This document shows, one piece after another, positions 3,521-32,354 of a stretch of 64,000 nt of DNA. The notes below the pieces were generated by a model that was given only the letters and a program-made list of their open reading frames with translations, did no database searches and had not been told where the DNA came from. The position numbers and the translations under genes were made by a program. The DNA comes from Candidatus Kapaibacterium sp. GTDB lineage: Bacteria > Bacteroidota > Ignavibacteria > Kapaibacteriales > UBA2268. The stretch lies in the NCBI GenBank assembly GCA_026390695.1, contig JAPLFL010000103.1, positions 8,963 through 72,962 on the forward strand, written 5' to 3'. How positions within the stretch are numbered: position 1 is the stretch's first letter; each line of letters opens with the position of its first letter.

Positions 3521-3943
3521 ATGAAATACTCAAAAGCAATCACTGAATCAATAGTGATGGAACTGAGACAAGGAAATGGCAGAGTAAGAACCTGTAAAGC
3601 AGTTGGAATTACTCACGAAACTTTTATGAATTGGATTACAAAATATTCCGAGTTTTCCGACACTATAAAAAAAGCAGAGAAAGCCGGTATTATGTTAAAG
3701 AAAGAAGAAGCCGAACAATGTATCCGAGAGGCACAAAAAAAGCAATGGCAAGCCGCCGCTTGGTTTTTAGAGCGTAAATTTCCAAAAGAGTACGGACGTA
3801 AAGAAAATATTGAGATGCACGGAAATATGAAGAACGATATAAAAATGAATATGCCAATATTATCACCTGTACCACAAACTGAAGAAGAAATGGAACTGAA
3901 AGATAGATTACTGGTATTGATGGAAAAAAATAGAAATAACTAA
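3521..3943 (+). CDS. Terminase small subunit-like protein
   Basis: N-terminal HTH (CKAVGITHETFMNW), then SEFSDTIKKAE, WQAAAWFLERKFPKEYGRK and the C-terminal strand IEMHG. This is the pattern of phage DNA-packaging small subunits. Confidence 0.65.
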   Translation: MKYSKAITESIVMELRQGNGRVRTCKAVGITHETFMNWITKYSEFSDTIKKAEKAGIMLKKEEAEQCIREAQKKQWQAAAWFLERKFPKEYGRKENIEMHGNMKNDIKMNMPILSPVPQTEEEMELKDRLLVLMEKNRNN

Positions 3944-3952
3944 TTTAAGGAA

Positions 3953-4339
3953 ATGATCATGCAAAAAGAATCACAAAACACACAGATAATCACAAATAGA
4001 AAAATATTCATTGACAATGCTGAATTAATCAATAGTACAGTATTGCAAATTATTTCAGAACATGATGGAAATAGAATGCCAAGTCTGAAGGAAATTTCCG
4101 AACGAACGGGACTTCATATAAACACAGTATCTAAGCACTACAAGAAATTAAAATTTGAGCCGAAAATAAGTCCGGTACGTTCATTATCTCCAATAGTGAT
4201 TTACAATATTTTCAACCTCACGAAAACAAGCGTCTCTGCCTGTGCTCTGTGGTTTAAAATCATAGAAGGGTGGGTGGAACGTGCTGAAGTTGAACATTCA
4301 GGAACTATTGTTGTACAATTGCCAAAAGAATTAGAATAG
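3953..4339 (+). CDS. HTH protein with TerS-like C-terminus
   Basis: PSLKEISERTGLHINTVSKHY HTH; ends WVERAEVEHSGTIVVQLP, where EVEHSG is typical of TerS oligomerisation strands. Confidence 0.55.
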   Translation: MIMQKESQNTQIITNRKIFIDNAELINSTVLQIISEHDGNRMPSLKEISERTGLHINTVSKHYKKLKFEPKISPVRSLSPIVIYNIFNLTKTSVSACALWFKIIEGWVERAEVEHSGTIVVQLPKELE

Positions 4340-30530: not shown

Positions 30531-30902
30531 ATGAAAAAGCTAATTATTACAAGTCTTATCTTTGTGCTAATAAGTGCATTGACAATGAATATTGAAGCAC
30601 AAACAAAGAAAGCAAAGATTACTTTTATTGAACTTGGTTCGGTTAATTGTATCCCTTGCAAAAAGATGCAACCAATTATGAAATCACTTGAAAAAAAATA
30701 TGGTGAGCAACTCAAAGTTATCTTCTATGATGTTTGGAAAAAGGAATATAAAGATAAAAGTAAAGAATACGGCGTTAAATTAATTCCAACACAAATATTT
30801 CAAGATGAAAATGGAAAAGAAATTCTTCGTCACGAAGGTTATTATCCTGAAGCTGATATTGATAAATTTTTGCAATCGAAAGGATTGAAGGTTTTGAAGT
30901 AG
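30531..30902 (+). CDS. Exported thioredoxin-family protein
   Basis: ELGSVNCIPCKKM, IPTQIF and RHEGY; paralogue of 28130-28525. Confidence 0.88.
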   Translation: MKKLIITSLIFVLISALTMNIEAQTKKAKITFIELGSVNCIPCKKMQPIMKSLEKKYGEQLKVIFYDVWKKEYKDKSKEYGVKLIPTQIFQDENGKEILRHEGYYPEADIDKFLQSKGLKVLK

Positions 30903-30945
30903 GGACGATGGACTTTTAATTGAAAGAAAATGACAAAAGCCGAAA

Positions 30946-31029
30946 AACCCCTCCCTAACCCTCCCCGAAGGGGAGGGAACAAAGCCACAATCCAATTCCC
31001 TCCCCTTCGGGGAGGGTTAGGGAGGGGTT
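30946..31029. repeat. Hairpin A: perfect 34-bp inverted repeat with 16-bp spacer
   Basis: AACCCCTCCCTAACCCTCCCCGAAGGGGAGGGAA (30946-30979) and its exact reverse complement (30996-31029). Confidence 0.95.
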
Positions 31030-31096
31030 CTTCGCTGATTATGAAGCTGTTCATCAATTTTAACAGCAACTATGTTAACTAATCCATTCACTTTTT

Positions 31097-31465
31097 ATGC
31101 GCTATATTCTAACAGACACATATACTTGGGACAAATTAAAAGGTTTTGTTCAGGAAAATCGCAAAGACCCAACTTATGCTGAACAAATCATTTGGACGAA
31201 TCTGAGAAGAAAGCAATTAGGATATCGCTTCAGAAGACAACATGCAATTTATAGATATATCGTTGATTTTGTATGTATTGAAAAGAAATTAATAATAGAA
31301 ATAGATGGAGATTCGCACGATGATAAACAAGAATATGATGCAGAAAGAGAAAAAGAATTAAGAGGAATGGGCTTTGATGTTCTTAGATTTACAAACGAAG
31401 AAGTGTTCCAAAATGGGAATAAAGTAATTGCAATAATTAAAGATAAATTAAATGAAAAAGAGTAA
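31097..31465 (+). CDS. DUF559 (Vsr-like/PD-(D/E)XK) endonuclease
   Basis: PTYAEQIIWTNLR, FRRQHAI..YIVDF, LIIEIDGDSH, DAERE and VLRFTNEEV. Confidence 0.92.
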   Translation: MRYILTDTYTWDKLKGFVQENRKDPTYAEQIIWTNLRRKQLGYRFRRQHAIYRYIVDFVCIEKKLIIEIDGDSHDDKQEYDAEREKELRGMGFDVLRFTNEEVFQNGNKVIAIIKDKLNEKE

Positions 31466-31512
31466 GAACAAGTTATTTGCTCAAATAGTGAGATTTGCGC
31501 TGAAACAAGCCC

Positions 31513-31602
31513 AAGAACCCCTCCCTAACCCTCCCCGAAGGGGAGGGAACAAAGCCACGATACAATTCCATCCCCTTCGGGGAGGGTTAGGGAGGGGTTC
31601 TT
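31513..31602. repeat. Hairpin B: direct copy of hairpin A
   Basis: Same 34-bp arms (one mismatch) and a similar spacer, 570 bp downstream of hairpin A. Confidence 0.95.
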
Positions 31603-31652
31603 CTGTGTGCTACGGAGATATCTTATAATAAAAACATTATGAAAGAACACTT

Positions 31653-32354
31653 ATGATTGAAACAATCTTCAACTCTCTCTCCGAACTGCTTTACGGCAAC
31701 TTCTGGCTCGCAACATTTTCAGCATTTGCTTGGGGAATATTAAGCATATTACTAAGTCCTTGCCATTTATCAAGTATTCCATTAATCGTCGGCTTTCTTA
31801 GTTCTCAAGGTGAAATAAGTTTAAAACGCACCTTCAACTTATCACTCGTATTTGCAATAGGAATACTAATCACAATTGCAATAATTGGAGCTATTACTCT
31901 CGCAATGGGACGTTTAATGGGTGATGTCGGCAAAATCGGGACATATCTTGTTGCTGTCATTTTCTTCGTAGTCGGATTATATTTATTGGATGTAATCCGA
32001 TTACCCTGGGACGGTGCAAAAATGAGCGGAACGAAATACAAAGGATTATTAGCAGCGCTCGTACTTGGACTAATATTCGGCATTGGACTCGGTCCCTGTG
32101 CCTTTGCATTCATGGCACCAGTTCTTGGAGTCGTGTTCCAAGTATCATCCACCGACATGATATTAGCAATAAGCCTCCTCGTTGCTTTTTCCATCGGACA
32201 TGCTTTTGTCATAGTTCTTGCCGGAACATTAACCAAGAAAGTTCAAAAATATTTAAACTGGACAGAAAATTCAAAAGTCAGTCGATATATAAAAAAGACT
32301 TGTGGAGTGCTGGTAATTATTGCAGGAATATATTTAATATATAATACTTTTTAA
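31653..32354 (+). CDS. ccdA: CcdA/DsbD-family disulfide transporter
   Basis: GILSILLSPCHLSSIPL and GIGLGPCAFAF, with six transmembrane segments. Confidence 0.9.
   Translation: MIETIFNSLSELLYGNFWLATFSAFAWGILSILLSPCHLSSIPLIVGFLSSQGEISLKRTFNLSLVFAIGILITIAIIGAITLAMGRLMGDVGKIGTYLVAVIFFVVGLYLLDVIRLPWDGAKMSGTKYKGLLAALVLGLIFGIGLGPCAFAFMAPVLGVVFQVSSTDMILAISLLVAFSIGHAFVIVLAGTLTKKVQKYLNWTENSKVSRYIKKTCGVLVIIAGIYLIYNTF

What the first reader, a model, noticed from the sequence alone, without database searches (positions are those of the whole stretch)
30946..31602. DUF559 endonuclease cassette bracketed by two identical GC-rich hairpins, a candidate REP-associated mobile unit
Seen: a lone DUF559 gene lies between two direct copies (570 bp apart) of an 84-bp hairpin with 34-bp arms. 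Each arm has its own CCCTCCCC-GAA-GGGGAGGG stem-loop. The unit splits a co-oriented thioredoxin > ccdA pair. Known: RAYT transposases are flanked by REP doublets in this way, and DUF559 is a Vsr-like nuclease without an established role. Inferred: a RAYT-independent system in which a small nuclease spreads or maintains its own palindromes, or homes into them.
Basis: partly seen in the sequence, partly recalled or inferred. Interest (0 to 1): 0.75.

Follow-up and report, generated by a model that had tools for sequence, protein, structure and literature searches.

The report
Mobile nuclease gene with BoxC-like palindromes
A small Vsr-like (DUF559) nuclease gene flanked by two copies of a GC-rich palindrome has inserted into an operon, and related genes in many bacteria, including E. 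coli ycjD with its unexplained "BoxC" repeats, carry the same kind of palindrome, which points to an undescribed selfish nuclease-plus-palindrome element.

Summary
An intact DUF559 ORF (31097-31465) lies between two direct copies, 570 bp apart, of an 84-nt composite hairpin, although the copies are 93% alike rather than identical. The ~750-bp unit (30903-31652) is an insertion: close relatives have the thioredoxin stop and ccdA start 8-9 nt apart. A 78%-identical DUF559 gene in another Ignavibacteria genome sits in an unrelated locus with arms 34/34 identical, while third codon positions are 56% identical.

The link is family-wide. Of 80 metagenomic homologues, 67 have such hairpins within 350 nt, about 28 times the background density. 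The usual layout is a left arm, the gene, then a right arm, forming 30-60-nt inverted repeats without target-site duplication.

Each arm is a BoxC-type element. A profile built from the 22 published E. coli BoxC repeats hits exactly the four arms in the window. E. coli ycjD (DUF559) adjoins BoxC copy 9.

The protein keeps the catalytic residues of Vsr-like "EDxHD" homing endonucleases. No RAYT gene is present, and a RAYT gene in a relative has a different palindrome.

My best reading is a selfish nuclease-palindrome cassette that spreads by nuclease-stimulated recombination between palindrome copies. Cleavage and the mechanism are inferred, not shown. I found no paper describing the link.

The parts
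30903..31652 (+). Whole inserted cassette, lying between the thioredoxin stop codon and the ccdA start codon
   Evidence: Relatives with CcdA 83-85% identical have only 8-9 nt between the thioredoxin stop and the ccdA start, with no hairpin and no DUF559 gene (L130-L135, L216-L218).
30931..31033 (.). Upstream direct-repeat copy. It contains composite hairpin 1: arms 30941-30979 / 30996-31034, 34-nt core arms 30946-30979 and 30996-31029, loop 30980-30995, and sub-hairpins 30959-30977 and 30998-31016.
   Evidence: Repeat family D1 and inverted repeat I1. Exact 19-mer matches. DNA fold of -48.6 kcal/mol, z=-13. Both arms are hit by the E. coli BoxC profile at E about 9e-4.
31097..31465 (+). DUF559 (Vsr-like, EDxHD-type) nuclease ORF of 122 aa
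   Evidence: Pfam PF04480 at E=2.3e-35. NCBIfam YcjD model NF007294 at E=1e-21, below that model's equivalog cut-off. The family profile hits PDB 3hrl at E=1.5e-31 and 3r3p (I-Bth0305I) at E=6e-7. Invariant residues are E29, D57, E68, H74 and D81.
31501..31603 (.). Downstream direct-repeat copy. It contains composite hairpin 2: arms 31513-31549 / 31566-31602, loop 31550-31565, and sub-hairpins 31529-31547 and 31568-31586 (one mismatch).
   Evidence: Repeat family D1 and inverted repeat I4.. DNA fold of -45.7 kcal/mol, z=-10.8. BoxC-profile hits at E=7.6e-4 and 0.015. Two independent short-read contigs end inside its right arm (L125, L126).
30531..30902 (+). Thioredoxin-like gene. This is the host operon gene upstream of the insertion, not part of the element.
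   Evidence: Pfam Thioredoxin_2 and Thioredoxin. It is syntenic in relatives.
31653..32354 (+). CcdA/DsbD_TM gene. This is the host operon gene downstream of the insertion, not part of the element.
   Evidence: Pfam DsbD_TM. Many homologues are 83-87% identical.

Best explanation
The locus is a selfish insertion of about 750 bp. It is a free-standing Vsr-like (DUF559 / EDxHD-type) nuclease gene packaged with copies of a BoxC-type GC-rich palindrome.

The gene and the palindrome form one mobile unit. The palindrome arms act both as the site the nuclease recognises, as duplex or extruded hairpin, and as the homology used for repair.

Proposed cycle:
1. The nuclease nicks or cuts a resident copy of the palindrome.
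2. The break is repaired by recombination with a copy that carries the gene. This may be homing-like gene conversion, or Campbell-type recombination of a gene-plus-palindrome unit with a resident palindrome.
3. When the gene enters the loop, the product is left arm, gene, right arm.
4. When the exchange uses whole palindromes, the gene ends up between two direct copies, as in this window.

**Shown here:** the insertion itself; the same unit at a different locus in another genome; family-wide flanking palindromes with a fixed polarity; arms conserved far more than the gene; stand-alone palindromes; an intact catalytic motif; no RAYT gene.

**Inferred:** that the protein acts on the palindrome at all, where it cuts, and that spread goes through recombinational repair.
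For: - **Insertion.** Empty thioredoxin|ccdA junctions of 8-9 nt occur in relatives.
- **Mobility.** L001, whose protein is 78% identical, carries the same arms in an unrelated context. All complete arms are 34/34 identical, while the CDS is 74.9% identical at the nucleotide level and 56% at third codon positions.
- **Association.** 67 of 80 metagenomic homologues have C-rich/G-rich hairpins within 350 nt, at 2.22 per kb against 0.079 per kb in the same loci.
- **Polarity.** The nearest upstream arm is left-type 41 times and right-type 7 times. The nearest downstream arm is right-type 37 and left-type 7 (Fisher p=1e-11).
- **Inverted repeats.** The flanks form 30-60-nt inverted repeats. Arms within a locus are more alike than arms from different loci (0.52 against 0.32).
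- **No target-site duplication** above the null in 41 loci, which fits recombination rather than DDE transposition.
- **Reverse test.** Of 12 DUF559 genes found in 120 hairpin-centred genome loci, 10 lie within 250 nt of the hairpin.
- **Stand-alone palindromes.** They occur in the L001 genome (L043, L079) and in another genome (L112).
- **Annotated proteins.** Many annotated homologues carry N- or C-terminal extensions that read like translated hairpins.
- **Enzyme.** The EDxHD catalytic residues are invariant. The family is profile-homologous to the dimeric homing endonuclease I-Bth0305I, which cuts a pseudopalindromic site (PMC3239194).
- **E. coli parallel.** ycjD adjoins BoxC copy 9, with a median of 19 BoxC-like copies per genome.
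Against: - The empty alleles found here contain no palindrome, so simple homing into a pre-existing palindrome is not demonstrated at this locus. How the palindrome first arrives is unexplained.
- Protein-arm covariation is weak at depth (Mantel r=0.115). A sequence-specific homing enzyme would be expected to track its site more closely.
- The 122-aa protein has no separate DNA-binding domain, unlike I-Bth0305I.
- The window itself holds no stand-alone copy, and the rest of the source genome could not be searched.
- In E. coli, ycjD is single-copy and sits at one fixed locus. Where it is absent, the eef efflux operon occupies that locus. So it is not visibly jumping there.
- There is no biochemical evidence of any kind.
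Confidence: 0.5

Rival explanations
1. Analogue of the RAYT/REPIN system. The DUF559 protein acts as the mobilising enzyme for the palindromes in trans. It excises or copies stand-alone BoxC-type palindromes and disperses them, while its own gene usually stays single-copy and flanked by the repeats it serves.
For: - Stand-alone copies far outnumber gene-bearing ones: a median of 19 per E. coli genome against 0-1 ycjD, and at least two stand-alone composites in the L001 genome.
- The gene is flanked by its repeats, as RAYT genes are.
- The palindrome has reached a site that has none in relatives, so the palindrome itself must be mobile.
Against: - A Vsr-like PD-(D/E)XK hydrolase has no known strand-transfer chemistry.
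- The gene moves together with the arms.
- Protein-arm covariation is weak.
- Palindrome number could not be tested against the presence of the gene.
Confidence: 0.2
2. No functional link. BoxC-type palindromes are an independent repeat family, spread by an unknown factor, that piles up in permissive intergenic DNA. This includes the flanks of small horizontally acquired genes. DUF559 would then be cargo, or a host repair or defence nuclease.
For: - About 110 of 120 hairpin loci have no DUF559 gene within the stretch fetched.
- The same thioredoxin|ccdA junction has independently taken up unrelated four-helix-bundle (23S_rRNA_IVP) cassettes with their own G-rich/C-rich inverted repeats. The site is therefore simply permissive.
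- A larger DUF559-containing protein in Caulobacter is proposed to act in very-short-patch repair (PMC12907096).
Against: - It does not explain the fixed polarity of the arms around the gene (p=1e-11).
- It does not explain the arm pairing within each locus.
- It does not explain the 28-fold local enrichment against the same contigs.
- It does not explain identical arms travelling with a diverged gene to a new locus.
- PADLOC has no defence-system match.
Confidence: 0.15
3. RNA-level role, which could coexist with the others. The flanking hairpins act on the operon transcript as RNase III or stability elements. They would insulate the inserted ORF so that the host operon tolerates it, as stems of 23S rRNA intervening sequences enclose their ORFs.
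For: - The cassette sits inside a co-oriented operon, and the scan found no promoter-like site in the spacer upstream of the gene.
- The hairpins are very stable.
- Neighbouring genomes hold IVS-protein cassettes enclosed by long inverted repeats at the same junction.
Against: - It does not explain mobility, stand-alone copies, or why a nuclease gene in particular is enclosed.
- There are no compensatory changes to argue for RNA pairing, because the arms are invariant.
- Rfam gives only sub-threshold chance matches.
Confidence: 0.1
4. Ordinary intrinsic terminators, or chance palindromes, on either side of an ordinary gene.
For: The hairpins are GC-rich stem-loops in intergenic DNA.
Against: - No T-run follows them, and the terminator scan does not call them.
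- The 19-mer is expected 0.01 times by chance.
- The arm sequence is conserved across genomes and across phyla.
Confidence: 0.02

Closest known systems
E. coli BoxC repeats (about 50-56 bp, 22-32 copies, function unknown; sequences in Additional file 1 of PMC2267715)
   Same: - Each arm has the BoxC build: a C-tract tail, TAA, then a C-rich/G-rich stem-loop. Compare CCCCTCCC-TAA-CCCTCCCC-GAA-GGGGAGGG here with CCCCTCACCC-TAA-CCCTCTCCCC-AAA-GGGGCGAGGGG in BoxC.
- A profile of the 22 published BoxC copies hits exactly the four arms in 64 kb and nothing else.
- BoxC copy 9 lies next to E. coli's own DUF559 gene, ycjD.
   Different: - The stems here are 2 bp shorter, and the scores are weak (E about 1e-3).
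- Here two arms face each other as a perfect 34-bp composite hairpin, whereas the published E. coli copies are listed as single units.
- The host phylum is different (Ignavibacteria-like).
- I found no published link between BoxC and DUF559/YcjD.
EDxHD (Vsr-like) homing endonucleases, prototype I-Bth0305I (PMC3239194)
   Same: - Homologous catalytic domain: family profile against PDB 3r3p at E=6e-7.
- Conserved E/D/H/D residues.
- A selfish gene that is present or absent at a given site.
- A palindromic or pseudopalindromic DNA context.
   Different: - I-Bth0305I is intron-encoded, has NUMOD/HTH DNA-binding repeats, and targets a unique protein-coding site.
- This protein is the bare 122-aa domain, free-standing, and tied to a dispersed repeat.
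- Cleavage is untested.
REP/REPIN-RAYT systems (PMC3116915)
   Same: A single small nuclease-type gene is flanked by members of a dispersed palindromic repeat family, which also occurs as inverted doublets and stand-alone copies.
   Different: - The enzyme is a PD-(D/E)XK Vsr-like hydrolase, not an HUH Y1 transposase.
- No Y1_Tnp homologue is in the window.
- A RAYT-like gene in a relative carries a different palindrome.
- Here the gene itself moves with the arms.
MITE / autonomous-element pairs with terminal inverted repeats; and, from memory, insertion sequences that insert into REP loops (IS1397)
   Same: Gene-bearing units are bounded by 30-60-nt inverted repeats, and short gene-less versions consist of just the two arms.
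   Different: There is no target-site duplication and no DDE transposase.
23S rRNA intervening-sequence protein (TIGR02436 four-helix-bundle) cassettes
   Same: They are small lone ORFs enclosed by long G-rich/C-rich inverted repeats, inserted at the very same thioredoxin|ccdA junction in related genomes.
   Different: The protein is unrelated and the repeats are different (tandem GGGAAC or GGGACAA arrays). No nuclease is encoded.

Membership tests
DUF559 / Vsr-like (EDxHD) nuclease superfamily | Significant match to the family model | tested here: met
   PF04480 at E=2.3e-35, 121 bits against a cut-off of 20.6. The profile hits PDB 3hrl at E=1.5e-31 and 3r3p at E=6e-7.
DUF559 / Vsr-like (EDxHD) nuclease superfamily | Conserved catalytic E...D...H...D residues | tested here: met
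   E29, D57, E68, H74 and D81 are invariant in 40 homologues, including the window protein. They correspond to the residues described for Vsr and I-Bth0305I in PMC3239194.
DUF559 / Vsr-like (EDxHD) nuclease superfamily | Mg-dependent DNA nicking or cleavage | not testable with these tools
   This needs purified protein.
Homing endonuclease gene (free-standing) | Alleles with and without the gene at one locus | tested here: met
   The window is filled. L130-L135 and L216-L218 are empty. However, the comparison is across species-level divergence (CcdA 83-85% identical), not within a population.
Homing endonuclease gene (free-standing) | The empty allele carries the recognition site, and insertion splits it | tested here: inconclusive
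   The empty alleles found here have no palindrome. In the wider family the gene usually sits between the two arms of one palindrome (25 of 80 clean left-gene-right cases), as homing predicts. No matched filled/empty pair was found.
Homing endonuclease gene (free-standing) | The enzyme cleaves the empty site | not testable with these tools
REP/REPIN-RAYT system | HUH Y1 (IS200-like) transposase | tested here: not met
   The protein is DUF559. tblastn of a RAYT-like protein from L221 against the window gives nothing below E=2.
REP/REPIN-RAYT system | The gene is flanked by members of a dispersed palindrome family that also occurs alone | tested here: met
   The copy number in the source genome itself is unknown.
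TIR transposon / MITE | Terminal inverted repeats | tested here: met
   Inverted repeats of 30-60 nt bound most homologous loci.
TIR transposon / MITE | Target-site duplication | tested here: not met
   In 41 loci the flanking direct repeats are no longer than with shuffled partners.
E. coli BoxC repeat family | Sequence match to the published BoxC copies | tested here: met
   nhmmer with a profile of the 22 copies from PMC2267715 hits the four arms only, at E=7.6e-4, 8.8e-4, 9.1e-4 and 0.015. The match is weak. It shows the same architecture, not proven common descent.
E. coli BoxC repeat family | Tens of dispersed intergenic copies per genome | tested here: inconclusive
   In E. coli the median is 19 copies. 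For the window's organism only the two flanking copies are visible.
Integron attC site | R''/R' core sites (RYYYAAC ... GTTRRRY) at the ends of an imperfect palindrome | tested here: not met
   Read directly from the sequence. The ends are AAGAAC ... GTTCTTC, the stems are perfect, and no integrase is nearby.
Intrinsic terminator | GC stem-loop followed by a T-run | tested here: not met
   The scan does not call either hairpin.

The most novel reading that the evidence does not exclude
BoxC-type GC-rich palindromes and small DUF559 nucleases together form a pan-bacterial class of selfish element that has not been recognised. It would be a second, HUH-independent solution to REPIN-type mobility. 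A Vsr-like nuclease acting on folded or palindromic DNA would drive copying of itself and of its palindromes by recombinational repair. This would give a function both to the E. coli BoxC repeats, unexplained for about 30 years, and to YcjD.
Probability: 0.3. Interest if true: 0.85.

Novelty: new variant of a known kind. Interest (0 to 1): 0.72.

Why it matters
DUF559 is a very large uncharacterised family. At 50% identity, 9,688 protein clusters match this protein at E<=1e-10.

BoxC repeats have been catalogued in E. coli for decades without a function. A systematic physical link between the two, seen from Ignavibacteria-like genomes to E. coli K-12, turns two "unknowns" into one testable hypothesis in the best model organism: ycjD together with BoxC.

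If the nuclease acts on its palindromes, three things follow:
- It adds a new enzyme class to repeat-associated mobile elements.
- It explains a common source of gene mis-calls, namely ORFs extended into translated hairpins.
- It may explain local rearrangements such as the ycjD/eef replacement in E. coli (PMC12817139).

Tried and rejected
- **Rfam scan of the region.** It returned only miRNA and snoRNA models far below their gathering scores, which are generic long-hairpin matches.
- **Terminator and promoter scan.** The hairpins are not terminator-like, and there is no convincing promoter upstream of the gene.
- **attC reading.** Rejected from the sequence itself, because the core sites are absent.
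- **Defence-system reading.** PADLOC gives no match.
- **Remnant of a four-helix-bundle (IVP) cassette under the window's insertion.** Local alignments of the cassette edges and spacers against L127, L219 and L220 are not better than shuffles once 12 tests are allowed for. Only the 9-nt TAGGGACGA after the thioredoxin stop is shared with L220.
- **Target-site duplications.** None above the null.
- **Clean empty site in E. coli.** Genomes without ycjD carry the eef efflux operon at that position instead, so they give no filled/empty pair.
- **Viral contigs as a source of filled/empty pairs.** Only 125 distant relatives were found, and 11 of the 80 examined have hairpins. This is not a phage-centred family.
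- **Survey of all genes next to stand-alone hairpins.** My "longest adjacent ORF" pick was too crude, because it missed known DUF559 neighbours. I dropped it.
- **Literature.** Searches for DUF559, Vsr-like plus inverted repeats, free-standing homing endonuclease plus palindromic repeats, BoxC, and ycjD found no paper linking the nuclease to the repeats.

Full report
**1. The observation**

- An intact 122-aa ORF at 31097-31465 matches Pfam DUF559 at E=2.3e-35.
- It lies between two direct copies (30931-31033 and 31501-31603, 570 nt apart) of a composite hairpin.
- The copies are 93% identical over 103 nt, not identical. The loops differ at two positions and the last arm has one mismatch.
- Each hairpin has 34-nt core arms, with pairing up to 39 nt, and a 16-nt loop. 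Each arm holds its own CCCTCCCC-GAA-GGGGAGGG stem-loop.
- The 19-mer is found nowhere else in the 64 kb, against 0.01 matches expected.
- The hairpin folds at -48.6 kcal/mol, z=-13.
- The neighbours are a thioredoxin-like gene and a CcdA/DsbD_TM gene. Both belong to an ars-type operon that also has an ArsP permease, Thioredoxin_3 genes and, downstream, ArsR, a low-molecular-weight phosphatase and a methyltransferase.

**2. It is an insertion, and the unit moves**

CcdA has many close homologues.
- In loci with CcdA 83-85% identical (L130-L135, L216-L218), the thioredoxin stop and the ccdA start are 8-9 nt apart, with no hairpin and no DUF559 gene. So 30903-31652 is inserted DNA.
- The closest DUF559 homologue is 78% identical and comes from an Ignavibacteria MAG. 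It lies between unrelated secreted-protein genes, yet is flanked by the same composite hairpin. Its downstream copy is partly decayed.
- Aligning the two cassettes shows the arms unchanged while the spacers and loops are unrelated.
- Every complete arm is 34/34 identical. The coding sequence is 74.9% identical, 56% at third codon positions. That locus was found through the protein, so the arm identity is not an artefact of the search.
- The same MAG and another genome hold stand-alone composite hairpins in intergenic DNA (L043, L079, L112).
- Two independent short-read contigs of the window's own organism break inside the downstream arm, as repeats do.

**3. The association is a property of the family**

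- Many database homologues carry N- or C-terminal extensions such as SPSPKGEGPGGEV or GPSPQGRGAPG. These are translated hairpins.
- I fetched 80 metagenomic loci encoding homologues 42-57% identical and scanned them with a simple detector: a perfect C-rich/G-rich stem of at least 6 bp and a loop of 3-6 nt. In the window it finds only the known hairpins.
- Of the 80 loci, 67 have such a hairpin within 350 nt of the gene, and 37 have one on both sides. The density is 2.22 per kb near the gene against 0.079 per kb in the rest of the same contigs.
- The arms have polarity. A "left" arm is a C-tract tail followed by the hairpin. A "right" arm is the hairpin followed by a G-tract tail.
- The nearest upstream arm is left-type 41 times and right-type 7 times. 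The nearest downstream arm is right-type 37 and left-type 7 (Fisher p=1e-11).
- So the usual layout is left arm, gene, right arm: the gene sits inside one palindrome, bounded by 30-60-nt inverted repeats.
- The window's layout, with a whole palindrome on each side, is the minority. It is shared by its closest relatives L001 and L229, and L226 has right-gene-left.
- No target-site duplication exceeds the shuffled-partner null in 41 loci.
- Upstream and downstream arms of one locus resemble each other more than arms of different loci (0.52 against 0.32).
- Protein-arm covariation is significant but weak (Mantel r=0.115, 15 of 2000 permutations). It is carried by pairs at least 70% identical.
- More distant Vsr-like genes on viral contigs mostly lack hairpins (11 of 80). 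The link therefore belongs to this bacterial clade.
They span Flavobacterium, Bacteroidales, Ignavibacteria, Desulfobacteraceae, Anaerolineae and others. They hold 12 DUF559 genes, 10 of them within 250 nt of the hairpin.

**4. What the arms are**

- The generic half-element is CCCC(T/A)CCC, 2-3 nt, CCCTCCCC-GAA-GGGGAGGG.
- E. coli K-12 has one DUF559 gene, ycjD. Downstream of it lies CCCCTCACCCTAACCCTCTCCCCAGAGGGGCGAGGGG.
- That sequence is copy 9 of the 22 published E. coli BoxC repeats (supplement of PMC2267715).
- The 56-nt element has a median of 19 copies in 5,426 E. coli genomes.
- A profile built from the 22 BoxC copies hits the four arms in the window and nothing else (E=7.6e-4 to 0.015).
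- In the 80 metagenomic loci, BoxC-profile hits are about 27 times denser next to DUF559 genes than elsewhere.
- So the arms are BoxC-type elements. BoxC is listed as a stem-loop repeat family of unknown role (PMC2267715).

**5. What the protein is**

- The family profile matches the structural-genomics protein 3hrl at E=1.5e-31. It matches 3r3p, the catalytic domain of the intron-encoded homing endonuclease I-Bth0305I, at E=6e-7.
- I-Bth0305I is Vsr-like, dimeric, and cuts a pseudopalindromic target (PMC3239194).
- Residues E29, D57, E68, H74 and D81 are invariant, along with W33, Q48, R84 and R97. The enzyme is probably active.
- It also hits the NCBIfam YcjD model, below that model's equivalog cut-off. 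It matches no PADLOC defence model.
- The family is large: 9,688 clusters at E<=1e-10.

**6. RAYT independence**

- No Y1 transposase homologue is in the window.
- In a related genome, a RAYT-like gene a few kb from the same operon is flanked by its own, different palindrome, GGACACGGCGTGCCGTGTCC.

**7. Mechanism**

I favour a selfish nuclease-palindrome cassette that spreads by nuclease-stimulated recombination between palindrome copies.
- This explains the inverted-repeat layout without target duplications.
- It explains the existence of gene-less palindromes.
- It explains arms kept identical while the gene drifts, either through constraint or through conversion among copies.
- It explains the window's direct-repeat layout, as the product of exchange between a gene-plus-palindrome unit and a resident palindrome.

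It does not explain how a palindrome first reaches a site that lacks one, nor the weak covariation at depth. Recognition of structure rather than sequence would fit both, but that is speculation.

The rivals are a RAYT-like trans-mobiliser, mere co-location, and RNA-level insulation. They are weighed in the structured fields. All steps involving enzyme activity are inferred.

**8. Known or new**

- Vsr-like homing endonucleases, BoxC repeats and REP-RAYT systems are each known.
- I found no paper linking DUF559/YcjD to BoxC-type palindromes.
- The nearest trace is a table in PMC9881135, where "DUF559 domain-containing protein" is enriched among predicted programmed-inversion targets. That is probably an indirect sighting of these inverted repeats.
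- A 2026 paper notes that ycjD occupies the fabI-sapF site in E. coli lineages that lack the eef operon, without mentioning the repeats (PMC12817139).

**9. Caveats**

- The 80 loci are the best tblastn matches, not a random sample.
- The hairpin detector was designed after seeing this hairpin type. The control is internal to the same contigs.
- The source genome outside the window was not available.
- BoxC-profile E-values are modest.

Noticed in passing
L127 2044-3000; L220 1329-2500; L219 657-934 (same thioredoxin|ccdA junction as window 30903-31652): In related genomes the same operon junction holds one or two four-helix-bundle (23S_rRNA_IVP / TIGR02436) genes, or a decayed 53-aa remnant. 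Each is enclosed by tandem G-rich repeats upstream (GGGAAC or GGGACAA units) and their C-rich complement downstream. The junction is a recurrent landing site for small structured cassettes.
   Followed up: partly
L220 about 1645, 2065 and 2485: Each four-helix-bundle cassette repeats TTAAACAGGAGAATTTATG (ribosome-binding site plus start codon) at its own start and again at the ccdA start. The insertion therefore restores translation signals for the downstream host gene.
   Followed up: no
L221 4909-5490 and flanks: A RAYT-like (Y1_Tnp, HUH motif) gene is flanked on both sides by its own palindrome GGACACGGCGTGCCGTGTCC, a few kb from the same operon. It is a classical REP-RAYT pair, distinct from the DUF559 palindromes.
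   Followed up: partly
L223 4200-4430 (E. coli K-12, minus strand, downstream of ycjD): Between a degenerate BoxC at the 3' end of ycjD and BoxC copy 9 lies a duplicate of about 48 nt of the ycjD 3' end, followed by a decayed right-arm tail (GGGTTAGGGG). It looks like the remains of a second DUF559 cassette.
   Followed up: no
E. coli collection: ycjD is present in 3,378 of 5,426 complete E. coli genomes. Where it is absent, the eefRABCD efflux operon lies at the fabI-sapF site instead. PMC12817139 infers at least two independent losses of eef, each leaving ycjD in its place. One genome has ycjD split by IS1.
   Followed up: partly
window 30998-31029 and 31568-31599 (G-rich strand of each arm): The G-rich strand of an arm, GGGGAGGGTTAGGGAGGGG, has four G-tracts with short loops. 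That is a formal G-quadruplex motif, with an i-motif on the complement. This was not tested.
   Followed up: no
window 30903-30911 against L220 1327-1335: The 9 nt after the thioredoxin stop (TAGGGACGA) are identical to the start of the G-rich repeat of the four-helix-bundle cassette in L220. This hints that the DUF559 cassette replaced an older cassette, but alignments of the remaining edges are not significant.
   Followed up: yes
window 3521-4339: Two small ORFs have weak phage-type matches, one to an Sf6-like small terminase and HTH_Tnp_1 and one to HTH_36. A mobile-element remnant may lie elsewhere in the window.
   Followed up: no
L003 5570-6780 (Kapaibacterium MAG, DUF559 56% identical): The gene is surrounded by three full copies of a MITE-like unit of about 115 nt, plus several half copies. 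Each unit is a left arm, a conserved 60-nt spacer, then a right arm ending GGAGAGGG-GTA-GGGTGAGGTC. The two arms have different hairpins, so the unit has polarity.
   Followed up: partly
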